A stretch of 64,000 bases of DNA, taken from NCBI GenBank assembly GCA_013336525.1, contig JAAXTM010000008.1, forward strand, positions 37,459-101,458. Reading direction: 5' to 3'. A program made the translations under genes and the position numbers. Position 1 is the first letter of the stretch. Each line of letters begins with the position of its first letter. The notes beneath the pieces were generated by a model that saw only the letters and a list, made by a program, of their open reading frames with translations, had not been told where the DNA came from and did no database searches. Positions 40,602 through 62,363 of this stretch are shown here, piece by piece. This DNA is from Geobacteraceae bacterium (GTDB lineage: Bacteria > Desulfobacterota > Desulfuromonadia > Geobacterales > Pseudopelobacteraceae).

Positions 40602-40635
40602 TACATTCCTCTCTTGGTGGAAATTATAATCCAAA

Positions 40636-40806
40636 AAACAGTTAACCGCCGATGAACGCAGATACACGCCGCCAGAAGTAGGCGCTTCTAAGCGAAAAAT
40701 CATAGACTTAGAACAAATACGGGTTTAACTAAAATGGTTAGTCATTTTTTTTGCAGTAATGTTTGGTTTTATCTGCGTTCATCTGCGTGTTCTGCGGTTC
40801 AACTGT
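40636..40806. repeat. MITE/REP-like inverted-repeat element, copy B (between hisI and hisG)
   Basis: The left arm is AACAGTTAACCGCCGATGAACGCAGAT. The right arm is ATCTGCGTTCATCTGCGTGTTCTGCGGTTCAACTGTT. The right arm matches copy A at 23 of 29 positions, and the internal AAATACGGGTTTAACTAAAA matches AAATACCGGATTAACCAAAA in copy A. Confidence 0.8.
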
Positions 40807-44294: not shown

Positions 44295-44299
44295 GTAAT

Positions 44300-45001: not shown

Positions 45002-45016
45002 TTTCCTTCCTAAAAA

Positions 45017-49080: not shown

Positions 49081-50460
49081 TTATATCGGGCGTACGCGGC
49101 TCCTGCCCAGCCGTTTCATTAACCGCCAAAGCGGTCCCTTGACCGGAAACATACGCAGAGCATCCAGCATGGCAGAGCTGACATTGACCTCAAGGCTCGG
49201 CACAATCCAGGTGCGCCGCTTGAGCGCCTGTTCTGTAACCAGATCGCAGAGCCCATCCCTGATTGCCGGCGAGATGTAGAATACCGGTTCCAACAGGCAA
49301 TCTCCCTTGGCAATAATGCCGTCCCTCAGGGCGATCTGCTCCATGGCGGTGCCTGGGTAGATCCGAATCCCGGTCATCGTGATGACTGCGGTCGGTTCAA
49401 CCTCATCCATCAGAGTGAACGTTTCCAGCACGGTTTCCCGCGTTTCACCCGGGCCGCCGAAAAGGATGTAATGGGCAAAGTCCATCCCCATTTCATGGCA
49501 GAGGCGTGATGATTCACGAATAGAGTCAACGGTGAAAGACTTGCCGAGATTTTTTAGCATTTGTGGCGAGCCGGAGTCACTGCCGTATTCAACCGCGTCA
49601 CACCCAGCCTCCTGCATAGCTTGCAGCAGTCGAGGCGTGATGAAGTCAGGGTTGATGAAGGCCGACCAGTTGACCGGCAGCCGCTCAGCAGAAATTGCCC
49701 GGCAGAGCTCTTCGGCAAAATCCGTGGGGTAGTTGAAGATGTCATCGACGAAATAGAGGTAGCTGACACCATAATCGTCCACAAGGGTGCGAATCTCGGC
49801 GATTATCTCAGCAATCGGGCGCAGGCGCATACAGCGCCCCTCCAGCAGCGGATAGGTGCAGTAGATGCACCCGAATGGGCAGCCACGCTTGGTCTGAAGA
49901 TTGGCCATCCCCCCTTCCCGGTAATAGCGGGCAACATCAAAGAGAGTACGATCAGGAGAGCCGATGGCTTCGACCGGCAGCGGCGGGATGAAATCTTCTC
50001 TTCCCGGCAGAACTACACCGGGGATCAGGGCCGCATCACCGCCCGACTCCAAACACTCGAACAGGCGCGGCAGTACTGCTTCCCCTTCCGCTGCCACGCC
50101 GTAATGAGCGCCTACAGCAGCCAAAATTTTCACCGGCATCAGCGAAAAACCGGAGCCGCCGATTATAGTCACGGCTTTGGGATGGCATATGGCAACGATA
50201 TCGCGCACACCATCAATATAGCTGCGGCTTCCCGGCCAGGTAACGTTATCAAGGTTGCGGAGGGAGATGACAACTGCATCGGGTTGATGCTCCGTAAGTG
50301 CCGAGGAGACAGCCAGTTGGGGGTCGGTTTCGAAACAGAGGTCGAGAGCGTTCAAAAGGTGCCCTGCCGCCGTCAGCGGTCCGGCCAGAAAGGCCAGTCC
50401 GATCGGGAAGACAGGGTATGGATCGCGCTCACGGTTGGCGGAGATCAGCAGAATCTTCAT
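49081..50460 (-). CDS. B12-binding-domain radical SAM protein (class B), copy 1
   Basis: 459 aa with an N-terminal Rossmann-like B12-binding region (MKILLISAN...) and the cluster motif CPFGCIYC. From memory it resembles the family NCBI labels 'lipid biosynthesis B12-binding/radical SAM protein'. Confidence 0.85.
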   Translation of the reverse strand: MKILLISANRERDPYPVFPIGLAFLAGPLTAAGHLLNALDLCFETDPQLAVSSALTEHQPDAVVISLRNLDNVTWPGSRSYIDGVRDIVAICHPKAVTIIGGSGFSLMPVKILAAVGAHYGVAAEGEAVLPRLFECLESGGDAALIPGVVLPGREDFIPPLPVEAIGSPDRTLFDVARYYREGGMANLQTKRGCPFGCIYCTYPLLEGRCMRLRPIAEIIAEIRTLVDDYGVSYLYFVDDIFNYPTDFAEELCRAISAERLPVNWSAFINPDFITPRLLQAMQEAGCDAVEYGSDSGSPQMLKNLGKSFTVDSIRESSRLCHEMGMDFAHYILFGGPGETRETVLETFTLMDEVEPTAVITMTGIRIYPGTAMEQIALRDGIIAKGDCLLEPVFYISPAIRDGLCDLVTEQALKRRTWIVPSLEVNVSSAMLDALRMFPVKGPLWRLMKRLGRSRVRPI

Positions 50461-50879
50461 GGCAGCTCCAACGCAGCTAATAAACGGTTTACCCGCTCAG
50501 CGATCAGGGGGGGGAGTTGAAACTGAAGTACGCCATCCAGATCGGTCAATGCGTGGGTTGTCGAACCGGTGGCATACTTTTTACCGTCAGAGCCGACTAT
50601 GGTGGTGATAAATTCGAGAGTGGCTGTCTCGGTCCGGCGCAGGGTTGTCCGGATCGTCAGCTCTTCGTTAAAACGGGCCGGCCGCAGAAACTTCAGTTCA
50701 AGAGCTACCACCGGTCCCAGATATCCGACTGTCGCCAACTGGAAAGCATCCAGGTCGAACTCCCCGGCCAGGGCGTTGCGGCCGATCTCCATCCAGGCCA
50801 CGTAATGGCCGTGCCAGGCGACACGGTAGGCATCAATTTCGTTGAAGCGGACTGCTATTTTCGTTTCGTGGAATTTCAT
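50457..50879 (-). CDS. 4HBT/YbgC-type acyl thioesterase (hotdog)
   Basis: 140 aa; VRFNEIDAYRVAWHGHYVAWMEIGR carries the catalytic Asp context of 4HBT thioesterases. Confidence 0.8.
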   Translation of the reverse strand: MKFHETKIAVRFNEIDAYRVAWHGHYVAWMEIGRNALAGEFDLDAFQLATVGYLGPVVALELKFLRPARFNEELTIRTTLRRTETATLEFITTIVGSDGKKYATGSTTHALTDLDGVLQFQLPPLIAERVNRLLAALELP

Positions 50880-51712
50880 ATCTCACTATCTATCCAGCGA
50901 TTGAATTTTGAGAGCGCCTTACCGGCACCCACCTCCTGAAACTGTGTCACCCCCCGCGAGCGGAGGGTGCGGTAGGTGGTATCCCAATAAACCGGTCGAC
51001 AGAGTTCATCAACCAGAAACGCAGGGATAGTCGCAGCTGTCAGGACCGTCTGGCCGATATGTTCTACCAGAGGGATTAGAGGCTCGCAAAAGCTGTACCC
51101 GGCCACGATCTGCTCTATTCCCTCGGTTATCTCTGCAATCAGCGGCGTGTGAAGCGGGGCGTCACAGGGGAAGCCCGCAGCCGAAAAGGCACCTGATGCC
51201 TTGGCTTCAGCCAGAGCCGCATCTATATTTTTTCGTTCGCCGGCCAGTAGAAAATGGTGAGAAGTATTATAGTTGGCGATGTGAACTGTGTTATTGGCAG
51301 CTATCTCTTCCAGTGGAGAGCAGCTCATTCCGATGACACACCCCAGCGCATATTCACGCTGCATCCCCCTCTTCGCCATAGCCACGCCGATCCGGTACGT
51401 CAGTTCAAGGGCCGTCGCACTGTCTATCGAGCCGGATGCAGCCAGTGCAGGATAGATCCCCATGCTGTGCTCGGCAATCAGGTCCGGTACCTTTCCCTCT
51501 ATTGTCAGCTGGCTGGAACGATGCAGGCTTATACAGGTGCCTAGCAGCTGAAGCCGCACACTCTGGCTTATATCTGAATCCGATATGTCGTTTTCAAGTG
51601 GATTACAGCCGGTTGATTCCTGGCAGACCCGGATGATTTTCTGGAATTCGATATCATCTGATGGCACACCGGTAAAGGTTATCGGCTGGCCTGGAAACAT
51701 CCAGCAGATCAC
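50876..51712 (-). CDS. FabD-like acyltransferase (malonyl-CoA:ACP transacylase family)
   Basis: 278 aa. It has FPGQ at the N-terminus and nucleophile motif EHSMG (in place of GHSxG), with an Arg 24 residues downstream and APLHTPL (His) retained. Confidence 0.8.
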   Translation of the reverse strand: MICWMFPGQPITFTGVPSDDIEFQKIIRVCQESTGCNPLENDISDSDISQSVRLQLLGTCISLHRSSQLTIEGKVPDLIAEHSMGIYPALAASGSIDSATALELTYRIGVAMAKRGMQREYALGCVIGMSCSPLEEIAANNTVHIANYNTSHHFLLAGERKNIDAALAEAKASGAFSAAGFPCDAPLHTPLIAEITEGIEQIVAGYSFCEPLIPLVEHIGQTVLTAATIPAFLVDELCRPVYWDTTYRTLRSRGVTQFQEVGAGKALSKFNRWIDSEI

Positions 51713-52995
51713 GCTTCACTCCTCTTGCGCCTGATGGCGGCACGGAAACCGATGTTCATCGGTCCGAAGACCTGTACGGAACGGTGCAGTTTAAAGATAC
51801 GGCGATACATGGAAGGAAAAGAATAAAAGGAGCGGTTAAGCCAGTCGTACCCTTCCTGAAGCTGCTGAACTGTCATCCCTTTTGGCTGGAAGTTGATGTG
51901 CTCCATGTCATAGTCGCGCCAATTGCTGGAGATGATCCGGCCTTCCGCTTCGAGACGGCGGCGGACGGCGGTGCCGGGATATGGGGTCAACAGCGGGAAA
52001 ATGGCCGCTTCAAGACGTGCCTCTTCACAGAAACGGAGCAGTTTCGGGAAGATTTCAGGTGTGTCTCCGTCATAACCGAGTACAAAGGAGCCGAGGATGC
52101 CGATGCCGTTATCACGAAAGGCCCGGGCATCTGCCATGAATGACTGCGCCCGGTTGGTAACCTTCCCCATGGCGGCCAGTGATTCCTGATTAAGCGATTC
52201 GAAGCCGACGAACATCCCCAGGCAGCCGGACTCACCGGCGGCACGCATCAACTCGCGGTCACCCGCAAAATCTATCGGCGCGTGGGAGAGCCATTTGAAG
52301 CCCATCCCCTTCATCCCCTGGAAGAGCGGCAGAGAATACTTGCGGTCAGCCACGAGGTTGTCGTCTACAAAAAAGACGAATGAGTTGGATTTTCGTAACT
52401 CCTGCAACTCGGTCAACACCTGTTCTACCGGGCGTTTCCTGTAATTACGCCCATAAAAGGCGGTGACAGAGCAAAATTCACAGTCAAAGGGACAGCCGCG
52501 TGTGGTCTGGATGGTGTTGGAGAGCAGATACCCCTTTCCCTTGAAAATATCGCGGCGGGCAACCGGAATGTCGGCCATGCTGATCATCGATTCAGGCTTA
52601 TAGAAACGCTGAAGCCTCCCCTGTGAAAAATCGGCGAGCAGTCCCGGCCAGACGACCTCTCCCTCTCCCACCACTACCGCATCAACGTGATTGAGCGCTT
52701 CATCCGGCAGATTGCTGGCGTGAAAGCCGCCCATGACCACGGTTTTACCACGGTTTTTGAAGCCGGCAGCAATCTCATAGGCACGGGGTGCCTGCGGAGT
52801 CATGGCGGTCAGGGCTATCAGGTCGGCATCCGTGTCGTAGTCGATCCGTTCTGAATGGTCGTCGCAGAGTGCTACGTCCCATTCCATGGGGGTGACAGCG
52901 GCAATAGCAGCCAGTGAAAGCGAAGGGAACCTGAAGGCCAGTTCCCCCCATAATCTCCCCTTGGGCCAACCGGGGGAGATCAGCAGTACTTTCAT
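51709..52995 (-). CDS. B12-binding-domain radical SAM protein (class B), copy 2
   Basis: 428 aa; N-terminal MKVLLISPG... Rossmann-like domain and cluster motif CPFDCEFC. Confidence 0.85.
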   Translation of the reverse strand: MKVLLISPGWPKGRLWGELAFRFPSLSLAAIAAVTPMEWDVALCDDHSERIDYDTDADLIALTAMTPQAPRAYEIAAGFKNRGKTVVMGGFHASNLPDEALNHVDAVVVGEGEVVWPGLLADFSQGRLQRFYKPESMISMADIPVARRDIFKGKGYLLSNTIQTTRGCPFDCEFCSVTAFYGRNYRKRPVEQVLTELQELRKSNSFVFFVDDNLVADRKYSLPLFQGMKGMGFKWLSHAPIDFAGDRELMRAAGESGCLGMFVGFESLNQESLAAMGKVTNRAQSFMADARAFRDNGIGILGSFVLGYDGDTPEIFPKLLRFCEEARLEAAIFPLLTPYPGTAVRRRLEAEGRIISSNWRDYDMEHINFQPKGMTVQQLQEGYDWLNRSFYSFPSMYRRIFKLHRSVQVFGPMNIGFRAAIRRKRSEA

Positions 52996-53249
52996 TTGCG
53001 GTTTTCCGCAATATATGCGGCCATGCTGCGGACCGAGGCAAAGACTGTGCTGCCGGTGGCAGCGTCGGGAACAACTACGCCGAATTCCTTCTCCATAGCC
53101 ACCACCAGCTGCAGTGCATCAATGGAGTCCAGCCCCAATCCTTCGCCGAACAGCTGGGCATCGGTATCGATTTCGTCAGGAGACATCCCCTCGATGCGGA
53201 GACTGTCAATAATCATCTGTTTCACTTTTGGTATTAACTCGTCACTCAT
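52992..53249 (-). CDS. acyl carrier protein
   Basis: 85 aa; the phosphopantetheine site is LGLDSIDALQL. Confidence 0.9.
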   Translation of the reverse strand: MSDELIPKVKQMIIDSLRIEGMSPDEIDTDAQLFGEGLGLDSIDALQLVVAMEKEFGVVVPDAATGSTVFASVRSMAAYIAENRK

Positions 53250-53293: not shown

Positions 53294-54214
53294 TTATTGT
53301 GGCCTTGCTTTTTCAGACTCGTTGCTTTTTTCAAAAAAATCATAAAAATTGTACCACTGGTCCGGATATTGCCGGATATAGCGTTCGAAAACGGCTGCCA
53401 GGCGCTGCATGCCGCTCCGTATGGCCTCTTTGTGCTGGCCATGTCCGCCGCTGAAGTAGATAGCTTCATCCATAAGCGTCGAATATTTCCCGTTTTCCAG
53501 CGGAACAAAGACCGGAATAACCGGCGCTCCACTGGCAAGAGCCAGATAACCGGGGCCAACCGGTATCTCCGTTTGATGTCCGAAAAAATCCAGTCTTATT
53601 GTGTGGGAAGATCCGTCGCGCTCGCCCAAGAGGGCCAGTACCTCGTTCCGCCGCAGGGCGTTGACCGCTTCGATGATCGCCAGTGGTGACGTGTCGTTAC
53701 GATCCACATAGATAAAATTAACGCCGCGCTCACCCCTTACTGATTCGCGCATTTCGTTTACCTTTTCATCCGGCTCGCGAAAGGTCATTACGTTAACGGT
53801 ATACCCAAGATCGGCCAAACCCAATCCACCCAGTTCCCAATTGCCAAGATGGGGCGAGACCAGGATAGCACCGGTACCAGCCGCCAATGCCATCTCCAGC
53901 GGTTCTCCACTGCTGCGTTTACCGATCATGGCCTGGAGCTTTTCCCCCTTTAGTCGCATCATCAGCATTACATCGCACCAGTTTTGCCCGAATGTACGGA
54001 AGGTGGAAAAGACTAGCGCTTCGACATCGTCACTGCCGGTTACAATTCTCAGGTTCGAGCGCACGGCACGTCGTTTGTCTCCCAGCAGCAGGTAGAAAAG
54101 CCCGCCCCAGAAAAGTGTGAACGGTGGAAACAGCCAGCGTGGCACCAGAATGGTAAAAAGATTTATAAAGAACAGATTGATGTTGCTGTAGAGATTCAAA
54201 AAAACAGCTCCCAT
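53294..54214 (-). CDS. LpxL/HtrB-family (lysophospholipid/lipid A type) acyltransferase
   Basis: 306 aa with an N-terminal TM. SPHLGNWELGG is the H(x4)E/D acyltransferase motif of the LpxL/HtrB family. Confidence 0.8.
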   Translation of the reverse strand: MGAVFLNLYSNINLFFINLFTILVPRWLFPPFTLFWGGLFYLLLGDKRRAVRSNLRIVTGSDDVEALVFSTFRTFGQNWCDVMLMMRLKGEKLQAMIGKRSSGEPLEMALAAGTGAILVSPHLGNWELGGLGLADLGYTVNVMTFREPDEKVNEMRESVRGERGVNFIYVDRNDTSPLAIIEAVNALRRNEVLALLGERDGSSHTIRLDFFGHQTEIPVGPGYLALASGAPVIPVFVPLENGKYSTLMDEAIYFSGGHGQHKEAIRSGMQRLAAVFERYIRQYPDQWYNFYDFFEKSNESEKARPQ

Positions 54215-55551
54215 GCACAGAGTGCCAGCTTCCTGAAGGAGAGATTCCCTCTGCCTGCGGCCTGCTTGAAACCTTGGGTCGCTTCCTGTGAACGACGGTA
54301 GAATTTTACAAAAGCCTTGATAAGCAAAAATTGCAGATAATGACGATTTATCAACGGGTGCCGGAAGACGATGTGCAGGCCGTCATAAAACTTCCAGCGC
54401 CGGCAGAAGATGCGGTCCTTGATCTGCTCATAGAGCCTGGTGCCGGGATAGGGGGTCAGGATGGAAAACTGGGCAATGTTGGTATTGAGCCTGACCGCAA
54501 GGTCAATAGTCTTTTCTACGTCAGCGGCGCTCTCATTCAGGTTGCCGATGATGTAGCTGCCGTATGATTCGACTCCGTTTTCCCTCAAAATCTCCACCGC
54601 ACGGGTAACATCGCTTGCCTTGATGTTCTTGCCGAGCGAGTTCAGTGTTTCCTCATTGCCGCTTTCAATGCCGAGGTAGACTGTTGTGGAACCTGCGGCA
54701 GCCATTTTGGCTACCATGGCCGGATTTTTTACGATGGTGTCGACCCGTGAGAGGTTCCACCATTTCAGATCATAGCCGCGCTCGATGATCCCGTCGGCAA
54801 TCTGCTCGACGCGCGGCGGCGCAAGGGTGAAATTGTCATCCATGAAGCAGATGGCCCGGAACCCATAACGGTTATAAACTTCATCGATCTCAGCCAGCAC
54901 CGATTCGGCGCTACGGTAGCGCCACCCTCTGCCGAAAAAACTCGAAGATGAACAGAAATGACAGGCGCCGGGGCAGCCGCGACTGGTAACAACCGGGGTT
55001 ATGGAACGGTCGGCCATGCTGGCCCGGTAGCGATGGAGATCTACCAGATGCCGGGCCGGAAAGGGGAGGGCTTCAACGTCAATCGGGTCGGCGGCGGGTG
55101 TCTCAATCAGGTGACGACCATCCTTGATGATCAATCCTTTTACCGCTTCAGCACTGTCACTGTTCTGGAGCGCGGTCAGGAGATTGCGAAATACAATCTC
55201 TCCCTCACCTTTGACGATATAATCAACACAACCTGCGGCAAATATATCCTCCGCCATGAATTGCGGATGGGGGCCCCCCATAACTACCGGCCTGCCGGTA
55301 ACAGCGACTCTGCGGGCTATGGCAAGCGCCTTGCCCGCTCTGGTTGTGTCTGCCGAAATCCCTACAACGTCGGCCCGGTGGATATCAGCATCATCCAGTC
55401 GCTCACCTTCGGCCGCCAGATCCTTTACAACCACGTCGTGACCGCCCTGTTCAAGGCTGGCGGCAACGTAGAGCAGGCCGATGGGGGGGAGGCTCAGGCC
55501 AAACGTATTAAATACGCTCAGGGATGGTGGATTTACCAGCAGTACCTTCAT
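54196..55551 (-). CDS. B12-binding-domain radical SAM protein (class B), copy 3
   Basis: 451 aa; MKVLLVNPP... Rossmann-like domain and cluster motif CPGACHFC. Confidence 0.85.
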   Translation of the reverse strand: MKVLLVNPPSLSVFNTFGLSLPPIGLLYVAASLEQGGHDVVVKDLAAEGERLDDADIHRADVVGISADTTRAGKALAIARRVAVTGRPVVMGGPHPQFMAEDIFAAGCVDYIVKGEGEIVFRNLLTALQNSDSAEAVKGLIIKDGRHLIETPAADPIDVEALPFPARHLVDLHRYRASMADRSITPVVTSRGCPGACHFCSSSSFFGRGWRYRSAESVLAEIDEVYNRYGFRAICFMDDNFTLAPPRVEQIADGIIERGYDLKWWNLSRVDTIVKNPAMVAKMAAAGSTTVYLGIESGNEETLNSLGKNIKASDVTRAVEILRENGVESYGSYIIGNLNESAADVEKTIDLAVRLNTNIAQFSILTPYPGTRLYEQIKDRIFCRRWKFYDGLHIVFRHPLINRHYLQFLLIKAFVKFYRRSQEATQGFKQAAGRGNLSFRKLALCAWELFF

Positions 55552-56928
55552 TTATTTGCTTCCGGTTTTCATGGTCTTTACCGGAGGCTCCTTGAACTCA
55601 TCTTCCCAGATCGGATCAGCGATCTCTGCATAGGAACGGGAGTAGTTATCCATCTGGTCCGCCAGGCCGGTGAAAATTTCATCTGCACCTTCATGGGTCG
55701 GATAGGCACCTTCAGAGGCGAAAAGTTCCCGACCGGCTGCCGGTTGATCAATCAGCATGCAGGGGCGCAACAGGTTGTCATGCTCACCCTGTTTCTGGCG
55801 GATTTTAGTGAAAAACGGAGATGAAAGCGCCTCGTGGATAGTTGAACGGCGGATATTATCAACGGCAAAATGACAGAAGACACACGGCTCGATGTCGCCG
55901 TTGGCATTGATATGGAAATATTTGCGCCCTCCGGCCAGGCAGCCGGAGATCATCGGCCCGTCATTCCAGAAGTCAATAAACAGCATCGGCTTTTCGGCGC
56001 GATAGTCGATAACGGTCCGACGCAGTTCATCTCGCTGTTCGGGGGTCGGCATCAGTTCAGGTTCAGGCTTGCGTCCAACCGGAACATAGGAAAATAGCCA
56101 CATGGCAAAGACGCCCTTCTTCAGCAGCATGTCGATGTAGTCGCCATTGGTGATGATGTCGGAATTTTTGCGGGAATGAGTGAATGAGCCGCAGAAGGAA
56201 AGTCCCCCCTCTTTCATCAGGTCCATGGCGTGCATAACCTTTTTAAAATGCCCGGCACCGCGGCGTTCGTCGGTTTCCTGCTCGTACCCCTCAAGCGAAA
56301 AGGAGGGCATGACATTGCCGACGTCAGTCAACTTTTCAACCATCTTTTCATCGATCAGACCACCATGGGTAAAGACCAGAAAAGCCATGTCGCTATGTTT
56401 TTTGAAGATTTCGAAAATGCCTTCCATATAAAACGGCTCACCGCCGGAGATAACTGCGAAATAAACACCCATCTCTTTCATCTGGGTCAGGATGGAATCG
56501 ACTTCATCCAGCGAAAGTTCCAGCGATTTGTCATAGTCGCCGGCATAGCAGCCGTAACAGCTGAGGTTGCAACGCATGGTAGGACTGATAACCACGGTTG
56601 AAGGTGGATAATAGCCGTACTTGTCACTCCACTCCTTGCGTTTGTTGGTACCGTTCAGCAGGTGATTGACGAGCAGATTGCTGATCCATTTGTCACGCTG
56701 ATTGGGGTGCAGATCGCGGAGAATCCTGCGGGGGAATTCAATGCTCGGATGTTTATCCCGCACCAGACCACGAATCCAGCGGATGCGATCCTTGTAATAG
56801 TCCTTCTTGGGAATCATCTCCATCAGATGGGTCATGCGGATCAGCGATTCATCTGATGAATTTGTCGCCAGCGACAGGAGATATGTAAGGATCTTTTCTT
56901 TTGTGTAATTTTTCAGAGTGTTGATCAT
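55552..56928 (-). CDS. radical SAM protein with C-terminal SPASM/twitch-like Cys region (no B12 domain)
   Basis: 458 aa with an ~110-aa N-terminal extension, cluster motif CNLSCYGC, and the later GCLAGGRKYFHINANGDIEPCVFCHF, typical of auxiliary-cluster domains. Confidence 0.8.
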   Translation of the reverse strand: MINTLKNYTKEKILTYLLSLATNSSDESLIRMTHLMEMIPKKDYYKDRIRWIRGLVRDKHPSIEFPRRILRDLHPNQRDKWISNLLVNHLLNGTNKRKEWSDKYGYYPPSTVVISPTMRCNLSCYGCYAGDYDKSLELSLDEVDSILTQMKEMGVYFAVISGGEPFYMEGIFEIFKKHSDMAFLVFTHGGLIDEKMVEKLTDVGNVMPSFSLEGYEQETDERRGAGHFKKVMHAMDLMKEGGLSFCGSFTHSRKNSDIITNGDYIDMLLKKGVFAMWLFSYVPVGRKPEPELMPTPEQRDELRRTVIDYRAEKPMLFIDFWNDGPMISGCLAGGRKYFHINANGDIEPCVFCHFAVDNIRRSTIHEALSSPFFTKIRQKQGEHDNLLRPCMLIDQPAAGRELFASEGAYPTHEGADEIFTGLADQMDNYSRSYAEIADPIWEDEFKEPPVKTMKTGSK

Positions 56929-56943
56929 TCGACATATGCCTCG

Positions 56944-57606
56944 TTACATGTAGCGTAAAAATGTCATGCTTATATTGACTGTATCTTTGACCGGGCGATA
57001 ATGGCTGGTTGCGCGGCCATCGGCAACCCGTGCTGCAATCGGAAGGGAGCCAACCGTGAAACCTCTCTTCCATGCCTTCAATAAAATTTCCATCTCCAGT
57101 GCGTATCCATTTGACTTCAATGACACATCCTTCAATACGTTACGAGAATAAAACCTGAAACCGGACTGACTGTCCGTAATCTCAAAACCTGTACGTTTCC
57201 AGATACACCAGACACCGATACGGTTCCATAATTTACGGAGACCGGACATCAGTTCGAACTGGGCGTGACGGGACGCTATCAGAATGCCCCAGCCGCCGTT
57301 CTGTGCAGAAGAGACCAGCTGCGGGATAGCTGAAACATCATGCTGGCCGTCGGCATCAATTGTTACTACCGCGTCGAAAGCGGATTCAATCGCCCAGGCA
57401 AAACCGGTTTTCAGCGCAGCTCCCTTGCCAAGATTTTGCCGGTGGCGGAGCAGTGTCACCGGTAATCCGGCTAATAAATCGGACAGGTCAGTTGCCGAGC
57501 CATCATCAACCACCACCACCGGCATGCCATGCTCCAGGCACTCTTGAACCACCGGCAGAATTGTGATGTCGGCGTTATATGCAGGAATCAGGATACAGGT
57601 TGCCAC
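56944..57606 (-). CDS. family 2 glycosyltransferase (short, polyprenyl-phosphate/lipid type)
   Basis: 220 aa; ILIPAYNA...VVVVDDGSATD...TIDADGQHD gives the GT-A DxD. Confidence 0.85.
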   Translation of the reverse strand: MATCILIPAYNADITILPVVQECLEHGMPVVVVDDGSATDLSDLLAGLPVTLLRHRQNLGKGAALKTGFAWAIESAFDAVVTIDADGQHDVSAIPQLVSSAQNGGWGILIASRHAQFELMSGLRKLWNRIGVWCIWKRTGFEITDSQSGFRFYSRNVLKDVSLKSNGYALEMEILLKAWKRGFTVGSLPIAARVADGRATSHYRPVKDTVNISMTFLRYM

Positions 57607-58427
57607 TCGTACACCAGCTCCTTTAGAGTTTTAAATCGATAACGCCGGCACAGTTCATTCAAACGGGGAGTCGCGTCCATTCTGGTTCCATAAGATACAA
57701 ACCGTTTCAAAAGCGGCAGGTCAAGCCTTGGTCCTTCAGGGTCCACCTCGCGCGGGTGAAGATACAGTACCGCCGGGTGATGTTTGCGGTTAAGCGATTC
57801 AATTGTCGCAAGTATGGTCCTGAAAGGGAAAAGCCTGAATCCCCATCCACCACCGGTTGGCAGGTTTCCTGTCAAAGACTTTGTCACCATCGGCGGGATT
57901 TCCCACAGCCCTGTTCCTTCGCCCTCAAGGCGGTATGGGACGCGGCTGCCGTTGGAATCACCTATAAAGGGGAGCGGATTTAGGCTCGAATCATATAGAT
58001 ACCCACGTTCTCGCAGGATAGCAAAGGGCCACCCGGTTTGCTCTGATAAAGACCATTGCGGAGCCCTGTAACCGACAGGGCGCTGTCCGGTCTGCTCCAT
58101 CAGTATCCGCTCGGTGAGTTGCAGCTCGTCACTAAACTGTTGCGGCGTCAGGTCCGGCACCAGACTGTGTGAATAACCGTGTGAGGCTATTTCATGCCCC
58201 GCTGAGCAGATCATGGTTGCTAAATCAGGATCATTTTCGGCCACGGAACCGAGTATGAAAAAAGTGCCTTTTTGACCATGTTCGTCAAGTAAAACAAGGA
58301 TCCTCTTCAGGTTGCTGCGAACCCGCCATGCCTCGCGTGGTGGAACAGGAATAACCCTCCCGGAGCCACAGACATGGTACCAATCCTCGACATCTATTGT
58401 TATAGCATTGTACGTCAGTAAAGGCAC
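57588..58427 (-). CDS. polysaccharide deacetylase family protein (NodB-like, DUF3473-type)
   Basis: 279 aa; ITIDVEDWYHV...GHEIASHGYSH are metal-binding motifs of CE4 deacetylases. It overlaps the GT2 gene by 19 nt. Confidence 0.8.
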   Translation of the reverse strand: MPLLTYNAITIDVEDWYHVCGSGRVIPVPPREAWRVRSNLKRILVLLDEHGQKGTFFILGSVAENDPDLATMICSAGHEIASHGYSHSLVPDLTPQQFSDELQLTERILMEQTGQRPVGYRAPQWSLSEQTGWPFAILRERGYLYDSSLNPLPFIGDSNGSRVPYRLEGEGTGLWEIPPMVTKSLTGNLPTGGGWGFRLFPFRTILATIESLNRKHHPAVLYLHPREVDPEGPRLDLPLLKRFVSYGTRMDATPRLNELCRRYRFKTLKELVYEWQPVS

Positions 58428-58497
58428 TCCGATACGCGTCGATAAAAGTTATAATAATTACATTACAAGTGATATCAAGTCAATATACCTGTCCCTG

Positions 58498-59457
58498 CTA
58501 AAGCATGCTCCTGATTTTTGTTCTTACGGCTTCTGCCACATCCCTGGTAACAAGTTTTCTGTCCGTTAGCGATTTAAGATAAAAGGGGACAACACAGCCG
58601 CAGCGGTGGCAATCGGCCTTGGGGCCAAGCATGCAGGGCTCTTTCATGACTCCGTCCGGTCCAAGAGCAAATGATTTTTCAGCAAAGGGGCATTTGTCAG
58701 TGACCGTTCGCGCTCTGTCGGATTTCATCAGTCTTAGCGTGCGTGTTGTGTTGACGATAAAATCTCCGTACAACGATTTCATTTCAATCAGAAATTCGAG
58801 AATTTGATCTTTTCCTTCCCATTCAAGCCACAGCGAATCGTCAACTCCCCTGACAGGGGTAAAAAAGCTGAACACAATGTTTCTGACTTTCGGGTTACTG
58901 CTCCACTCCTCCAGAGATGCGGAAATTTCAGTAACGTTCTCACTGGTAATGCAGTAGGCTATGGTGATTTTCAGTCCTTCGGTTGCGTCTATGTTCTGCC
59001 TGATCGTATCGAAAAGACCAGGCTTGTTGCGCATTTTGTCATGACTCTCCCTTCCCCCGTCAACCGAAATGTACCAGCTCACATCTTTCCAGTCGGGGAG
59101 CGGCAGGGAGCCGTTAGTCGTCACCGTATTGTATTTGAAATAGCGCCTACCCAATTCGATGAGCGGCAGACGCAGGAGAGGTTCTCCACCGACCCATGTA
59201 CACTGGAAGGAACGAAACCCCTCCGCCTTCATGTTCTCGAATTTTTCTCTCCACTGATCAAGCGACCACTCGGAAGAGTGTTCCTGTTCGAAAAAATAGC
59301 AATGATCGCAGCGCAGGTTACACCGATTGGTAACATCAACCGATCCGAAGCTGTTTTTAGGGATGCCGAAGAGGAAGAAACCGAGTTGAGCAAGATTGTA
59401 GGTGGAGAAGAGTGGTTTTGGATGTCTTGGTGCGGAAGTATGCTGCTGATTATTCAT
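58498..59457 (-). CDS. radical SAM protein, HpnH/DUF3463-like architecture
   Basis: 319 aa; cluster motif CNLRCDHC and a C-terminal Cys-rich tail CPFAEKS...CMLGPKADCHRCGCVVPFY. The resemblance to adenosylhopane-synthase-type rSAMs is from memory and needs an HMM check. Confidence 0.75.
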   Translation of the reverse strand: MNNQQHTSAPRHPKPLFSTYNLAQLGFFLFGIPKNSFGSVDVTNRCNLRCDHCYFFEQEHSSEWSLDQWREKFENMKAEGFRSFQCTWVGGEPLLRLPLIELGRRYFKYNTVTTNGSLPLPDWKDVSWYISVDGGRESHDKMRNKPGLFDTIRQNIDATEGLKITIAYCITSENVTEISASLEEWSSNPKVRNIVFSFFTPVRGVDDSLWLEWEGKDQILEFLIEMKSLYGDFIVNTTRTLRLMKSDRARTVTDKCPFAEKSFALGPDGVMKEPCMLGPKADCHRCGCVVPFYLKSLTDRKLVTRDVAEAVRTKIRSML

Positions 59458-59484
59458 GAAGCTTCACCCTATTATGAATTAAAC

Positions 59485-59525
59485 ACAGAAAGAACCCACG
59501 GCTCCAAGCCATGGGCTCTTTCTGT
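59485..59525 (-). terminator. 14-bp stem-loop between the lipoprotein gene and the first operon gene (terminator or attenuator)
   Basis: ACAGAAAGAACCCA / TGGGCTCTTTCTGT with one mismatch and a 13-nt loop. On the minus strand it is followed by GTGTTTAATTC and ends 28 nt before the rSAM start codon. Confidence 0.4.
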
Positions 59526-59591
59526 ATGACTTGCTGTTATAGTTCCGCTGCTCCGCTTCAAAGCATGCCAGTTCAGGTGCTGCTTTGCGTT

Positions 59592-60332: not shown

Positions 60333-61754
60333 GTGAAAATAGTCCTCCTGCACCCCTACGGCAGCAACTGGCTTAGTGGCATGAAAGATATCAGCACGGT
60401 ATTCAATCTGATGCCGCCGCTAGGTATTATGAGTATGGCAGCTGTTTTGGAGCGGGCGGGCATAGACGTCGAAATTATCGATTGCTACGCAACGCCTATG
60501 CCCCTTGCTGATCTGGTAGAAGAAATTATCCGCCGCGGCCCGGACTGTCTGGGCGTCTCTACCACGACATCTTCATTCAATGAAGGATATCGTGTCGCTG
60601 CAGCTGTAAAGGAAAAAGCGCCGCAGATATTCACCCTGTTCGGTGGAGCCCATGCCTGTACTATTGGCGCACAGCTACTTGATTCATTTCCCGCCATAGA
60701 TTATCTGGCTATCGGCGAAGGCGAAAACACAGTGCTGGAACTGGCCCAAGCAGGTTTCAAAGGGATTGAACAGCTTCCCGGCGTTGCATATAGGGATTCA
60801 AGCGGCGCGGGCGTCACTTCAGCGCCCCGTGAACTAATCAAGGATCTTGACGATCTCCCTTTTCCCGCATACCACAAACTGCCTCAATTTCCCAAACGCT
60901 ATAATCTACCACTCTTCAGTTATCCAACTGCTCCCAATACAAGCATCATCTCCAGTCGCGGCTGCCCTTATTCCTGCTCATACTGCGACCGCTCAGTGTT
61001 CAGCCGCGGCTTCAGATTTAACTCGCCTGAATATATCGTTGAGCATATGGCAATGCTTAACCGCGATTTCGGCATCCGCCATGTGTTCTTTTATGATGAT
61101 CTGTTTACCTTTGACCGCAAAAGGGTGGCAGAGTTCTGTGCCATAAAGGAACGTAAGGGATTGAAGGTTACCTATAATTGTATCGCCAGACTGGAACATG
61201 TGGATTCTGAATTGCTGGCGCTCCTTAAACGCTCCGGTTGCTGGCAGGTCAATTTCGGTATCGAGTCAGGAGATCCGGAAATATTAAAACAGCATCGCAA
61301 GTTCTTCGGGCTGGATGAGGTTGGACGTAAACTGCAAATGGTGAAGGATGCAGGCATGAGGGTTAAGGGGCTTTTTATGGTCGGCCTGCCGGGCGAGAAT
61401 GAGGCCGCTATTCGCCGCACCATCGATTATGCCCTATCACTGCCGCTGGACGAGATCAATGTTACCAAGTTCACCCCGTTTCCAGGGGCACCTGTCTACG
61501 GCACAATAAGAGAACAGGGTGAATTTAATGAGAGTTGGGATTTGATGAACTGCATGAATTTCGTCTTTGTGCCTCACGGTATGACCAAACAACAGCTGGA
61601 AGATCTCTATAACGAGTTCATTTACCGCTTCTACCACCGCCACCGCATCACCTGGGGGTACACTAAAATGCTCTGGAAATCGCCACACAGTATTTTGACG
61701 TTTATGCGGAACCTGCCGGAGATACTGGCTTTTGAGATGAAGCAGAAGTGGTAA
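60333..61754 (+). CDS. B12-binding-domain radical SAM protein (class B), copy 4
   Basis: 473 aa with a GTG start; MKIVLLHPYG... Rossmann-like domain and cluster motif CPYSCSYC. Confidence 0.85.
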   Translation: MKIVLLHPYGSNWLSGMKDISTVFNLMPPLGIMSMAAVLERAGIDVEIIDCYATPMPLADLVEEIIRRGPDCLGVSTTTSSFNEGYRVAAAVKEKAPQIFTLFGGAHACTIGAQLLDSFPAIDYLAIGEGENTVLELAQAGFKGIEQLPGVAYRDSSGAGVTSAPRELIKDLDDLPFPAYHKLPQFPKRYNLPLFSYPTAPNTSIISSRGCPYSCSYCDRSVFSRGFRFNSPEYIVEHMAMLNRDFGIRHVFFYDDLFTFDRKRVAEFCAIKERKGLKVTYNCIARLEHVDSELLALLKRSGCWQVNFGIESGDPEILKQHRKFFGLDEVGRKLQMVKDAGMRVKGLFMVGLPGENEAAIRRTIDYALSLPLDEINVTKFTPFPGAPVYGTIREQGEFNESWDLMNCMNFVFVPHGMTKQQLEDLYNEFIYRFYHRHRITWGYTKMLWKSPHSILTFMRNLPEILAFEMKQKW

Positions 61755-61772
61755 CATACAGGAAACGGTGAC

Positions 61773-62363
61773 ATGATACACTTCAAGGCATCCATAACTT
61801 TAGTACTGTTGTCCATACTTTCCCAGACAACGCCTGTTTCAGCTGGCAATCCGGTTTCTGGTATGAAGGGAGAATACGGAGGCCTCACCGGTTACGGCAT
61901 AACCCATAAATATTTTGGAGCAACCCGCACCCAGGTACAGACCTGGGATGCCATCCTCCGATTCGGCCGGTTTCTGTCTGACGATGTTGGCAAGGGGAGC
62001 TGGTATCAAGGAAGACATGAGTTGCTGATGGAGTTGCCGTATCATATGGCGGTGGATCATGGTGGCAGATCAATGGTGGGTGGGTATCTGTCCGGAAGCT
62101 GGAAGTTCACATCCCTGGAGAATGCAGCACCCTATGTTTTTGCTGGAGGTGGTCCCCTGTATGTGGATCTGGGACTCCCGACCATGGGAACTAAACTCTG
62201 CTACAGTTATCAGGCTGGAACCGGGCTGCAGTACTTTATTGACAGGAAGACCGCACTGAATGTGGAGTACCGATATCATCACATATCTAATGCAGGCACA
62301 GCTGAACCTAATGAACCGCTTAATTCCAGCAAAATCCTGTTTGGGATGTCATTTTTCTATTGA
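61773..62363 (+). CDS. acyloxyacyl hydrolase / PagL-like outer-membrane lipid deacylase
   Basis: 196 aa with a signal peptide and beta-barrel-like alternating pattern ending in F-Y. YRYHHISNAG matches the His-x-Ser-Asn catalytic motif of the PagL family. Confidence 0.75.
   Translation: MIHFKASITLVLLSILSQTTPVSAGNPVSGMKGEYGGLTGYGITHKYFGATRTQVQTWDAILRFGRFLSDDVGKGSWYQGRHELLMELPYHMAVDHGGRSMVGGYLSGSWKFTSLENAAPYVFAGGGPLYVDLGLPTMGTKLCYSYQAGTGLQYFIDRKTALNVEYRYHHISNAGTAEPNEPLNSSKILFGMSFFY

What the first reader, a model, noticed from the sequence alone, without database searches (positions are those of the whole stretch)
55552..59457. Two non-B12 radical SAM enzymes with auxiliary Cys-rich C-terminal domains inside the lipid operon
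The ORF at 55552-56928 has CNLSCYGC plus a SPASM/twitch-like GCLAGG...NGDIEPCVFCHF region and a ~110-aa N-terminal extension. The ORF at 58498-59457 has CNLRCDHC plus a tail CMLGPKADCHRCGCVVPFY that resembles the DUF3463 tail of HpnH-type enzymes. Neither has a B12 domain. rSAM enzymes with auxiliary clusters are the known catalysts of C-C coupling between lipid tails (archaeal tetraether synthase Tes/GDGT-MAS and the bacterial membrane-spanning lipid synthase). It is speculative but testable that one of these two couples or cyclises acyl chains made by the adjacent FAS genes.
Basis: inference. Interest (0 to 1): 0.65.

Follow-up and report, generated by a model that had tools for sequence, protein, structure and literature searches.

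The report
Lipid-tail-coupling enzyme homolog in Geobacter lipid operon
One of the two flagged radical SAM genes is a full-length relative of the bacterial enzyme that welds two fatty-acid tails into a membrane-spanning lipid, here built into a dedicated lipid-synthesis and export operon of a Geobacter-like bacterium, which gives a concrete gene to knock out to find what this long-unexplained operon makes.

Summary
Both ORFs are real, lie on the minus strand, and carry the stated motifs. Neither has a B12 domain.

rSAM-A (55552-56928) belongs to no curated NCBIfam family. It is a full-length homolog (39% identity over 427 aa, 2 gaps, E 4e-113) of the 482-aa Thermotoga radical SAM protein at the TM0824 position. 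Gene order and a paper's supplement identify that protein as the verified membrane-spanning lipid synthase Mss (Tmari_0825). The homologs of rSAM-A show the same unusual taxon spread reported for Mss.

In 80 Geobacterales loci rSAM-A is an invariant core gene. The order is deacetylase, GT2, rSAM-A, LpxL-type acyltransferase, ACP, B12 radical SAMs, FAS genes, then LolA/LolB/MMPL. A deacetylase/GT2/Mss-like/B12 module recurs in 12 unrelated metagenome loci.

rSAM-B (58498-59457) is an accessory gene, present in 8 of 80 loci. It has its own promoter-like gap and a five-Cys twitch-like tail. It shows no specific tie to Tes, HpnH/DUF3463 or Mss.

The product and the reaction remain inferred. This is a new variant of a known kind.

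The parts
55552..56928 (-). rSAM-A: 458-aa radical SAM enzyme of the Mss (membrane-spanning lipid synthase) family. It has an N-terminal helical domain, a radical SAM core and a SPASM-like domain that would hold an auxiliary cluster.
   Evidence: Pfam Radical_SAM + SPASM. 39% id, E 4e-113 to the Thermotoga 482-aa protein. Carries all family invariants. Present in all 80 Geobacterales loci.
56614..56928 (-). N-terminal helical domain of rSAM-A (about residues 1-105).
   Evidence: Predicted helices 3-104, at low to moderate confidence. Invariant residues within Geobacterales. Aligned without gaps to the Thermotoga protein from residue 19. The published model of archaeal Gms has the same layout, a six-helix N-terminal domain (PMC11186832).
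56548..56571 (-). CX3CX2C motif of rSAM-A (Cys120, 124, 127), the radical SAM [4Fe-4S] site.
   Evidence: Read directly from the sequence. Invariant in 90 and in 19 family members.
55744..55971 (-). C-terminal Cys region of rSAM-A. Cys330, 349 and 390 are invariant in the whole family. Cys352 is kept only in Geobacterales and a few others.
   Evidence: Pfam SPASM 330-390. Alignments A3 and A4.
58498..59457 (-). rSAM-B: 319-aa accessory radical SAM enzyme with a five-Cys twitch/SPASM-like tail. Its family is unnamed.
   Evidence: Pfam Radical_SAM only. Confident model with pLDDT 89. Foldseek gives generic SPASM/twitch matches. Found at the cluster head in 8 of 80 loci.
59299..59322 (-). CX3CX2C motif of rSAM-B (Cys46, 50, 53).
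   Evidence: Sequence. Nearly invariant in 60 homologs.
58594..58692 (-). C-terminal Cys cluster of rSAM-B (Cys256, 275, 283, 286, 288).
   Evidence: Invariant or nearly invariant in 60 homologs down to 48% identity. No Pfam SPASM or DUF3463 hit.
58451..58483 (-). Sigma-70-like promoter match in the 70-nt gap between rSAM-B and the deacetylase gene.
   Evidence: TTGATA-16-TATTAT, 10 of 12 matches. This is a consensus match only.
59484..59526 (-). Terminator-like 20-bp hairpin between the DUF2846 lipoprotein gene and rSAM-B.
   Evidence: sequence.
57588..58427 (-). Polysaccharide deacetylase (Polysacc_deac_1 + DUF3473).
   Evidence: Pfam. TIGR03006 scores 222.6 bits, below its cut-off of 276. 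Upstream of rSAM-A in 67 of 80 loci.
56944..57606 (-). GT2 glycosyltransferase of the polyprenyl-phosphate-sugar synthase type.
   Evidence: Pfam Glycos_transf_2. The best NCBIfam hits are PpgS and AglJ, both below cut-off.
54196..55551 (-). B12-binding radical SAM enzyme (BchE/HpnR-like), directly downstream of rSAM-A. It is optional in other loci.
53294..54214 (-). LpxL/HtrB-type (Lip_A_acyltrans) acyltransferase.
   Evidence: Pfam E 1.4e-29. Syntenic in nearly all loci.
52992..53249 (-). Dedicated acyl carrier protein.
   Evidence: Pfam PP-binding. 77-95% identical across loci.
51709..52995 (-). B12-binding radical SAM enzyme with DUF4070.
50876..51712 (-). FabD/MdcH-like acyltransferase.
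50457..50879 (-). 4HBT-type thioesterase.
49081..50460 (-). B12-binding radical SAM enzyme of family TIGR04072, 'lipid biosynthesis B12-binding/radical SAM protein' (model name rSAM_ladder_B12).
   Evidence: 376 bits against a cut-off of 360.
45637..48998 (-). FAS-II-like genes: KR (48258-48998), KS (47053-48258), a KS-like ORF with the N-terminal domain only, possibly a chain-length factor (46013-47056), and a FabZ/4HBT-like dehydratase (45637-46158, start uncertain).
41766..45640 (-). Export genes: LolA-like (45017-45640), LolB-like (44300-45001) and an MMPL/RND transporter (41766-44294).
60333..62363 (+). Divergent unit: a fourth B12-binding radical SAM enzyme (60333-61754) followed by a PagL-like lipid A 3-O-deacylase (61773-62363).
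   Evidence: The B12 gene sits divergently next to the cluster in several related loci.

Best explanation
rSAM-A is a member of the bacterial membrane-spanning lipid synthase (Mss) family. It has been recruited into a dedicated lipid operon instead of standing alone.

Most likely pathway:
1. The operon's own FAS-II-like enzymes (KS, KS-like, KR, DH, acyltransferase, thioesterase) build an acyl chain on the dedicated ACP.
2. The three to four B12-radical SAM enzymes modify unactivated carbons of that chain, most plausibly by methylation.
3. The LpxL-type acyltransferase moves the chain onto an amino-sugar-type acceptor prepared by the GT2 and the deacetylase.
4. rSAM-A abstracts a hydrogen near the end of one acyl tail with 5'-deoxyadenosyl radical. 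It holds the radical with the help of its three-Cys auxiliary cluster and forms a C(sp3)-C(sp3) bond to a second tail. The result is a dimeric (bola-type or macrocyclic) lipid.
5. The LolA/LolB-like proteins and the MMPL pump move that lipid toward the outer membrane.

rSAM-B is an optional extra tailoring enzyme of the same pathway, with a twitch-like auxiliary cluster. Its step is unknown.

Shown: the gene content, the homology, the conserved residues and the synteny. Inferred: the substrates, the order of steps, the coupling chemistry in this organism and the product.
For: Family membership:
- rSAM-A versus the Thermotoga sp. Mc24 482-aa protein gives 39% identity over 427 aa with 2 gaps, E 4e-113, including the N-terminal domain.
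- The hit is reciprocal within the operon.
- The Thermotoga protein lies at TM0824 by counting genes from the Fe-ADH, which equals PDB 1VLJ.
- The supplement of Sahonero-Canavesi et al. names Tmari_0827 a radical SAM protein, Tmari_0828 a hypothetical protein and Tmari_0829 an ABC ATPase. These match the next three genes, so the radical SAM Mss gene Tmari_0825 falls on the 482-aa gene.
- Named homologs of rSAM-A come from Thermotogales, Clostridia, Synergistales, Armatimonadota, Atribacteria, Planctomycetota, an FCB-group phylum, gamma-proteobacteria, Humimicrobiaceae and DPANN archaea. That is the spread reported for Mss homologs (PMC13159169 and PMC11868695).
- All family invariants are present: Cys120/124/127 and Cys330/349/390, plus the DFWNDGP and EPCVF motifs.

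Lipid context:
- TIGR04072 is above its cut-off on a neighbouring gene.
- Synteny is strict in 80 Geobacterales loci. rSAM-A is always present, with deacetylase and GT2 upstream in 67 of them.
- A partial duplicate keeps rSAM-A with ACP, with or without LpxL.
- Twelve unrelated metagenome loci have an Mss-like gene at 46-50% identity next to deacetylase, GT2, B12-rSAM, LpxL, ACP or MMPL genes.
- No precursor-like small ORF is present.
- Metatranscriptome contigs cover rSAM-A and most of the operon.

A pairing of a coupling SPASM enzyme with a B12-rSAM methylase is known from archaeal gms-gmm clusters (PMC11214058).
Against: - I could not obtain the sequences of the verified Mss enzymes (Tmari_0825, WP_129545148.1). 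The link rests on gene order, annotation strings and taxon spread.
- 39% identity does not fix substrate or regiochemistry.
- Verified Mss genes and most family members stand alone in housekeeping neighbourhoods. The cluster-embedded clade may therefore have a changed function.
- The rSAM-A model is only moderately confident (pLDDT 70). GDGT-MAS is not among its 50 best fold matches.
- I found no report of diabolic-acid-type or membrane-spanning lipids in Geobacter. My searches returned nothing on the product of this cluster.
- No ger/plsA-type ether-forming gene is in the window.
Confidence: 0.55

Rival explanations
1. rSAM-A belongs to the Mss family by descent but performs a different radical reaction on the operon's product. 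Candidates are an intramolecular ring closure or cross-link within one lipid, a cross-link between an acyl chain and the sugar head group, or a desaturation.
For: - The cluster-embedded clade differs from stand-alone Mss in context (versus 50, 86, 98, 99, 108).
- Geobacterales carry extra invariant Cys246 and Cys352 that the family lacks.
- The related enzymes Tes/GDGT-MAS and Gms show that this kind of enzyme can make intramolecular as well as intermolecular C-C bonds (PMC13459092 and PMC11186832).
- Similar clusters in anammox bacteria are suspected of ring formation (PMC2649909).
Against: - All residues invariant in the family are kept, and the alignment to the Thermotoga enzyme has only two gaps.
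- No evidence points to any particular alternative reaction.
Confidence: 0.25
2. rSAM-B modifies the sugar head group made by the adjacent GT2 and deacetylase, for example by oxidation, epimerisation or decarboxylation. It would resemble small twitch-domain enzymes such as BtrN, BlsE or SpeY, rather than touching the acyl chains.
For: - It sits directly beside the deacetylase and GT2 genes.
- Its size (319 aa) and single Cys-rich tail fit twitch enzymes.
- BlsE ranks third among fold matches and fold matches also include DesII and SpeY.
- BlsE is also a sequence match.
Against: - The fold matches are generic and headed by peptide maturases.
- No family model reaches its cut-off.
- Homologs at about 50% identity lie in unrelated contexts: OEP + MlaC twice, and TetR + oxygenases once.
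- It is absent from most clusters that keep the GT2 and deacetylase.
Confidence: 0.3
3. rSAM-B, not rSAM-A, is the tail-coupling enzyme, as a Tes/GDGT-MAS-like or HpnH-like enzyme.
For: - GDGT-MAS appears at rank 13 of the fold matches (E 3.6e-8, TM 0.44).
- GDGT-MAS is also a weak sequence hit (E 4e-4).
- The NCBIfam Tes model gives 36.7 bits.
Against: - The Tes score is 36.7 against a cut-off of 450 and covers only residues 37-102, around the CX3CX2C motif.
- There is no DUF3463 hit.
- rSAM-B is missing from 72 of 80 clusters.
- Its similarity to Mss-family proteins is generic, E 1e-5 to 1e-9.
Confidence: 0.05
4. One or both enzymes are peptide (RiPP) maturases or tetrapyrrole/cofactor enzymes (AhbD/NirJ, PqqE, anSME type) that merely lie next to lipid genes.
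For: - The best curated hits are AhbD, NirJ2, WgkB and PapB.
- The best solved-structure matches are SkfB, SuiB, PqqE and anSME.
Against: - All these hits are 4 to 10 times below their cut-offs, for example 86 bits against 500.
- The N-terminal domain of rSAM-A is all-helical, not an RRE-type winged helix.
- There is no precursor-like ORF.
- Synteny with ACP and acyltransferase genes is strict across 80 loci.
Confidence: 0.03

Closest known systems
Bacterial membrane-spanning lipid synthase Mss (Thermotoga maritima Tmari_0825; Thermoanaerobacter ethanolicus WP_129545148.1; Sahonero-Canavesi et al. 2022)
   Same: - Full-length homology to the Thermotoga family member (39% identity, E 4e-113).
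- The same size class (446-482 aa).
- An N-terminal helical domain.
- CX3CX2C plus three invariant C-terminal Cys.
- The same unusual taxon spread of homologs.
- An anaerobic host.
   Different: - Verified Mss genes stand alone and act on bulk membrane fatty acyl chains.
- rSAM-A is an invariant member of a roughly 18-gene operon with its own FAS genes, ACP, B12-radical SAM enzymes, LpxL-type acyltransferase, GT2, deacetylase and Lol/MMPL export genes.
- rSAM-A has two extra conserved Cys.
- Its product is unknown.
Archaeal GMGT synthase Gms (Li et al. 2024; Garcia et al. 2024)
   Same: - The published model has the same domain order: a six-helix N-terminal domain, a radical SAM core with Cys at about residues 123-130, a bridging region and a SPASM domain.
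- The size is 466-480 aa.
- It is AhbD/NirJ-like by curated models.
- It is often paired with a B12-radical SAM lipid methylase.
   Different: - Gms is reported to hold two fully Cys-ligated auxiliary clusters, whereas the rSAM-A family keeps only three invariant C-terminal Cys.
- Gms acts on isoprenoid GDGTs.
- No Gms sequence was available for a direct comparison.
Archaeal tetraether synthase Tes / GDGT-MAS (PDB 7TOL, NF045702)
   Same: A radical SAM enzyme that forms C(sp3)-C(sp3) bonds between lipid tails using an auxiliary cluster. The radical SAM core is recognisably similar.
   Different: - Only the core matches: profile E 5e-13 over residues 113-220.
- NCBIfam gives 36.7 bits against a cut-off of 450, and only for rSAM-B.
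- It is not among the 50 best fold matches of rSAM-A.
'Ladderane-like' FAS / B12-radical SAM clusters (Rattray et al. 2009; TIGR04072)
   Same: - One B12-radical SAM gene of the operon passes the TIGR04072 cut-off.
- Rattray et al. already noted similar clusters in Geobacter, Pelobacter and Desulfotalea.
- The anammox cluster kuste3335-3352 also holds a glycosyltransferase and a deacetylase-like gene.
   Different: - No ladderanes are known outside anammox bacteria.
- Phytoene-desaturase-like genes are absent here.
- The papers I found do not mention an Mss-family gene in such clusters.
Aryl polyene (APE) clusters of Gram-negative bacteria
   Same: From my own knowledge of APE clusters: the same scaffold of KS/CLF, KR, DH, thioesterase, ACP, LpxL-type acyltransferase, GT2, LolA-like protein and MMPL exporter.
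   Different: - There is no ammonia-lyase or aryl starter gene.
- Instead there are three to four B12-radical SAM enzymes, an Mss-family enzyme and a deacetylase.

Membership tests
Mss (bacterial membrane-spanning lipid synthase) | Radical SAM protein with the CX3CX2C motif | tested here: met
   Cys120/124/127. Pfam Radical_SAM E 5.5e-19.
Mss (bacterial membrane-spanning lipid synthase) | Homology to a verified Mss at the authors' threshold (E <= 1e-50, identity >= 30%) | tested here: met
   39% identity, E 4e-113 over 427 aa to the Thermotoga sp. Mc24 482-aa protein. Against other family members the range is 35-49% identity.
Mss (bacterial membrane-spanning lipid synthase) | The reference protein used above is the experimentally verified enzyme (Tmari_0825) | tested here: inconclusive
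   - The gene order Fe-ADH (= PDB 1VLJ), PheS, PheT, TetR, 482-aa rSAM, 323-aa rSAM, 56 aa, ABC, PfkB is shown.
- The supplement names Tmari_0827 a radical SAM protein, 0828 a hypothetical protein and 0829 an ABC ATPase.
- The radical SAM gene Tmari_0825 therefore fits the 482-aa gene only if one extra annotated ORF lies between them.
- The sequence of Tmari_0825 itself was not available.
Mss (bacterial membrane-spanning lipid synthase) | Reported distribution of homologs: Thermotogae, Firmicutes, Synergistetes, Armatimonadetes, Atribacterota, FCB, PVC, gamma- and delta-proteobacteria, DPANN, Humimicrobiia | tested here: met
   Named homologs come from all these groups, compared with PMC13159169 and PMC11868695.
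Mss (bacterial membrane-spanning lipid synthase) | Makes long-chain alpha,omega-diacids (diabolic or iso-diabolic acids) by tail-to-tail coupling under anoxic conditions | not testable with these tools
   Needs lipid analysis of mutants or heterologous expression.
Tes / GDGT-MAS (NF045702) | Score at or above the curated cut-off (450 bits) and similarity beyond the radical SAM core | tested here: not met
   - rSAM-B scores 36.7 bits over residues 37-102.
- The Tes model is not among the 25 best hits for rSAM-A.
- PDB 7TOL gives E 4e-4 to rSAM-B.
- The rSAM-A family profile matches 7TOL only over residues 113-220.
HpnH (TIGR03470) with DUF3463 tail | HpnH model above 225 bits and a Pfam DUF3463 C-terminal domain | tested here: not met
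   rSAM-A scores 39.4 bits. HpnH is not in the best 25 hits of rSAM-B. No DUF3463 hit at E <= 10 for either protein.
SPASM/twitch peptide maturases (RiPP) | A curated maturase model above cut-off, an RRE-type N-terminal domain, and a linked precursor peptide gene | tested here: not met
   - The best maturase models score 53-69 bits against cut-offs of 340-650.
- The N-terminal domain is all-helical.
- No plausible small ORF is present.
- A called 59-aa ORF next to a myxobacterial rSAM-B homolog is low-complexity LR repeats.
AhbD / NirJ heme-pathway radical SAM enzymes | Curated model above cut-off (500-650 bits) | tested here: not met
   86, 83 and 74 bits for rSAM-A. The same low scores hold for all 90 family members scanned.
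Gms (archaeal GMGT synthase) | Sequence homology at E < 1e-50 to WP_062369926.1 or METOK_RS04425, and two fully Cys-ligated auxiliary clusters | not tested
   - No Gms sequence could be extracted; only an all-atom model file is held.
- The domain order matches the published description.
- Only three C-terminal Cys are invariant in the rSAM-A family.
TIGR04072 lipid-biosynthesis B12/radical SAM clusters (context of both genes) | A TIGR04072 member above cut-off in the same operon as FAS-type genes | tested here: met
   ORF 49081-50460 scores 376 bits against 360. KS, KR, DH, ACP and AT are in the same operon.

The most novel reading that the evidence does not exclude
The operon makes a multiply methyl-branched, tail-to-tail coupled (membrane-spanning or macrocyclic) glycolipid that is exported to the outer membrane. 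Its enzyme set, an Mss-type coupler plus B12-radical SAM C-methylases, would then be the missing anaerobic route to branched membrane-spanning lipids of the brGDGT type in sediments. It would also serve as a tractable model, in Geobacter sulfurreducens, for the radical C-C chemistry suspected in the related anammox 'ladderane' clusters.
Probability: 0.15. Interest if true: 0.85.

Novelty: new variant of a known kind. Interest (0 to 1): 0.62.

Why it matters
Since 2009 the FAS/B12-radical SAM clusters shared by Geobacter, Pelobacter, Desulfotalea and anammox bacteria have had no known product. The anammox versions cannot be studied genetically.

Recognising the SPASM gene in the Geobacterales cluster as a member of the only bacterial enzyme family shown to join two fatty acyl tails gives the first specific chemical prediction for that cluster. 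Geobacter sulfurreducens carries a 78% identical ortholog in the same gene order and can be manipulated genetically, so the prediction is testable.

It also bears on a geochemical question. The anaerobic producers and the methylation enzymes of branched membrane-spanning lipids, which are used as climate proxies, are still largely unknown. Geobacterales are abundant in exactly those sediments.

If the product turns out not to be a coupled lipid, the result would still show that the Mss family has more than one function. That would caution against using Mss homology alone to infer membrane-spanning lipid producers in metagenomes.

Tried and rejected
- **Curated family models.** No NCBIfam model reaches its cut-off for either enzyme or for 90 relatives of rSAM-A.
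- **Sequence search of solved structures.** Only generic SPASM/twitch enzymes came up, with SkfB best.
- **AlphaFold models plus Foldseek against PDB.** The matches were generic.
- **DUF3463/HpnH.** No match.
- **Getting Mss or Gms sequences from papers.** Main texts and supplements hold no Mss sequence. The Gms model file is all-atom text, about 8 residues per read, so I abandoned it. The source-data file holds GrsA sequences only.
- **Guessing thermophile relatives by amino-acid composition**. This was only partly useful. The cluster look-ups found the Thermosipho member.
- **My recollection that TM0823 (TetR) has a PDB entry.** It was wrong. The Fe-ADH anchor, PDB 1VLJ, held.
- **RiPP reading.** The called 59-aa ORF beside a myxobacterial rSAM-B homolog is an LR-repeat artefact.
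- **OEP/MlaC neighbourhood of rSAM-B homologs.** It was seen twice but not in a third locus, so I did not use it as functional evidence.
- **Literature on Geobacter mid-chain hydroxy or unusual fatty acids.** The search returned nothing usable.
- **Horizontal acquisition of rSAM-B.** Its GC content (0.483) is only slightly below that of the operon, so I make no such claim.

Full report
**1. Observation**

Both ORFs are present on the minus strand at the stated coordinates.

rSAM-A (55552-56928, 458 aa):
- It carries CNLSCYGC, with Cys at 120, 124 and 127.
- It carries GCLAGG...EPCVFCHF, with Cys at 330, 349 and 352, and a further conserved Cys390.
- Pfam finds Radical_SAM and SPASM, and no B12 domain.

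rSAM-B (58498-59457, 319 aa):
- It carries CNLRCDHC and the tail CMLGPKADCHRCGC.
- Five C-terminal Cys are conserved in 60 homologs down to 48% identity.
- Pfam sees only the radical SAM core.
- The suggested likeness of its tail to DUF3463/HpnH is not recovered by any model, even at E <= 10.

**2. Surroundings**

The two genes head a minus-strand operon running from 59457 down to 41766. In order it encodes:
- rSAM-B;
- a polysaccharide deacetylase (DUF3473);
- a GT2 glycosyltransferase;
- rSAM-A;
- a B12-radical SAM enzyme;
- an LpxL-type acyltransferase;
- an ACP;
- a second B12-radical SAM enzyme;
- a FabD-like acyltransferase;
- a thioesterase;
- a third B12-radical SAM enzyme, which passes the cut-off of TIGR04072 ('lipid biosynthesis B12-binding/radical SAM protein', 376 bits against 360);
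- KR, KS, a KS-like protein and a dehydratase;
- LolA-like and LolB-like proteins and an MMPL transporter.

A fourth B12-radical SAM gene and a PagL-like lipid A deacylase are transcribed divergently.

This is the Geobacter version of the clusters that Rattray et al. (2009) compared with the anammox 'ladderane' clusters (PMC2649909). Its product has never been identified in the papers I could find. The closest relatives of the window's genes are uncultured Geobacteraceae (94% identity for rSAM-A). The window itself is held by biofilm metagenome runs.

**3. Conservation**

I fetched 80 Geobacterales loci through rSAM-A and compared them with the operon's proteins.
- rSAM-A is 74-94% identical and always present.
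- The deacetylase and GT2 lie upstream in 67 loci.
- The acyltransferase, ACP and B12 genes lie downstream wherever the contig allows.
- G. sulfurreducens has the same order with a 78% identical rSAM-A and no rSAM-B.
- rSAM-B is found at the head of the cluster in only 8 of the 80 loci.

In the window a terminator-like hairpin precedes rSAM-B. A promoter-like site lies in the 70-nt gap that separates it from the deacetylase gene.

Some genomes hold a second, partial copy that keeps rSAM-A with ACP, with or without LpxL, beside a sigma-54 activator.

**4. What rSAM-A is**

Curated models and solved structures say only 'SPASM/twitch radical SAM'.
- AhbD, NirJ and various maturases score 4 to 10 times below their cut-offs.
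- SkfB, SuiB, PqqE and anSME head the sequence and fold matches.
- GDGT-MAS matches the family profile only over the core.

An exhaustive search showed a large family. It has 552 clusters at 50% identity with E <= 1e-30. Its full-length members are 33-45% identical to rSAM-A and share the N-terminal domain.

Cluster look-ups gave names to members: Synergistales, Armatimonadota, Clostridium ihumii, Thermosipho, Ca. Humimicrobiaceae, and Pace-, Woese- and Nanoarchaeota. A search from the Thermosipho protein added all Thermotogales genera, gamma-proteobacteria, Atribacteria, Firmicutes, Planctomycetota and Krumholzibacteria.

This peculiar list is the one published for homologs of the bacterial membrane-spanning lipid synthase Mss (PMC13159169). 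That includes the Woesearchaeia and Humimicrobiia noted in the Black Sea study (PMC11868695).

**5. The link to the verified enzyme**

The Thermotoga sp. Mc24 member (482 aa) lies between a TetR gene and a 323-aa SPASM radical SAM gene. It is four genes from the Fe-alcohol dehydrogenase that is identical to PDB 1VLJ. From memory, 1VLJ is TM0820. By counting, the 482-aa gene is therefore at TM0824.

The supplement of the Mss paper lists Tmari_0827 as a radical SAM protein, Tmari_0828 as hypothetical and Tmari_0829 as an ABC ATPase. These match the 323-aa, 56-aa and ABC genes. Mss is Tmari_0825 and is described as a radical SAM protein. The only radical SAM gene just upstream is the 482-aa one.

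The second verified Mss, from T. ethanolicus, is 446 aa. That length is common in this family.

rSAM-A aligns with the Thermotoga protein at 39% identity over 427 residues with two gaps, E 4e-113. It is about as close to the Thermotoga protein as the family members from Clostridium and Synergistales are. It keeps every family invariant.

I could not obtain the verified sequences themselves, so this step is strong inference, not proof.

**6. Architecture**

The family keeps only three C-terminal Cys: 330, 349 and 390. Geobacterales add Cys246 and Cys352.

The published model of archaeal Gms has the same layout, although Gms is reported to have two fully ligated auxiliary clusters (PMC11186832). 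Gms is the enzyme that bridges two GDGT chains. Its layout is a six-helix N-terminal domain, a core with Cys near residues 123-130, a bridging region and a SPASM domain. In archaea gms is often paired with a B12-radical SAM lipid methylase (PMC11214058). That pairing parallels rSAM-A and the B12 gene directly downstream of it.

**7. Stand-alone and embedded forms**

Distant family members sit alone among housekeeping genes. This is expected for an enzyme that works on bulk membrane lipids.

A scan of metagenome contigs centred on a Planctomycetota member told a different story for some loci. It found 12 non-Geobacterales loci with an Mss-like gene at 46-50% identity to rSAM-A. In those loci the gene lies beside a deacetylase, GT2, B12-radical SAM, LpxL-type, ACP or MMPL gene. 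The deacetylase/GT2/Mss-like module is therefore older and wider than the Geobacterales, and it marks a cluster-embedded branch of the family.

**8. rSAM-B**

- Its model is confident (pLDDT 89), but the fold matches are generic: SkfB, CteB, BlsE, anSME and SuiB, with GDGT-MAS at rank 13.
- It is only generically similar to the Mss family and to the 323-aa Thermotoga neighbour.
- Homologs near 50% identity lie beside OEP and MlaC genes in two myxobacterial contigs, but beside TetR and oxygenase genes in a third.
- No precursor-like peptide gene is nearby.

I read it as an optional tailoring enzyme of unknown step.

**9. Expression**

Contigs of a sediment metatranscriptome, 90-100% alike, cover most of the operon's genes, including rSAM-A, but not rSAM-B. 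This is weak evidence. The contigs may include DNA, and the population sampled may lack rSAM-B.

**10. Conclusion**

- rSAM-A is very probably an Mss-family enzyme. Coupling of acyl tails made by the operon is the best-supported mechanism, though it is untested.
- rSAM-B has no demonstrated tie to lipid coupling.
- The Tes and HpnH comparisons fail.

The case is a new variant of a known kind, and it is testable in G. sulfurreducens.

Noticed in passing
window 60333-62363 (+): A fourth B12-binding radical SAM gene is followed by a PagL-like lipid A 3-O-deacylase. The pair is transcribed divergently from the operon. This hints that the operon's product is tied to lipid A or outer-membrane remodelling.
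   Followed up: partly
window 59484-59526 (-) and 58451-58483 (-): A 20-bp terminator-like hairpin lies just upstream of rSAM-B. A sigma-70-like promoter match lies in the gap between rSAM-B and the deacetylase gene. rSAM-B may therefore be its own transcription unit.
   Followed up: partly
loci L018-L022, L025-L027 (e.g. L022 5000-12800): Some Geobacterales genomes carry a second copy of rSAM-A (87-90% identical) with an ACP gene, with or without LpxL. This copy lacks the deacetylase and GT2. It lies next to a sigma-54 activator, a B12-radical SAM gene and a methyltransferase.
   Followed up: partly
L087 8949-12037 (Thermotoga sp. Mc24): The Thermotoga Mss-type gene is flanked by a 323-aa SPASM radical SAM gene and a TetR regulator. 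The small enzyme is only generically similar to rSAM-B (29% identity over 148 aa).
   Followed up: yes
L086 7723-10559: Two paralogs of the Mss-like family (440 and 504 aa, both with the N-terminal domain) lie in tandem in an uncultured bacterium. This resembles the gms-mss gene pairs reported by Garcia et al. 2024.
   Followed up: no
L118 1974-14500; L171 9980-21000; L141 170-6300: Metagenome loci from unknown lineages combine an Mss-like gene (49-50% identical to rSAM-A) with other cluster genes. L118 has up to six B12-radical SAM genes and an LpxL-type gene. L171 has LpxL, B12 and MMPL genes. L141 has GT2, DH, TE, ACP and KR genes.
   Followed up: partly
L085 7442-11878 (Synergistales): The Synergistales family member lies between secDF and a LapA-domain gene in a conserved housekeeping stretch. 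Nine similar places were not shown.
   Followed up: no
one search list (P0512-P0545): Family members at 46-49% identity to the Thermosipho protein occur in Enterobacteriaceae and Vibrionaceae, some on plasmids (Escherichia albertii, Klebsiella, Salmonella, Photobacterium). Their role there is unknown.
   Followed up: no
window 46013-46158 (-): The mechanically called dehydratase ORF (45637-46158) overlaps the end of the KS-like ORF by 146 nt. Its true start is probably further downstream.
   Followed up: no
window 59592-60110 (-): A DUF2846 lipoprotein gene with low GC (0.42, against 0.51 for the window) sits between the operon and the divergent B12 gene. A homolog appears upstream of rSAM-B in locus L006.
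   Followed up: no
window 1-41000: The rest of the window is ordinary housekeeping: MCP chemoreceptor, TatC, RNase R, homoserine dehydrogenase, two PLP enzymes, phosphotransacetylase, a PAS-GGDEF-EAL protein, a lytic transglycosylase, MutS, an AmiC-type amidase, RF-1 and HisG-like (39726-40703, read by eye, not scanned). No ger/plsA-type ether-lipid gene is present.
   Followed up: yes
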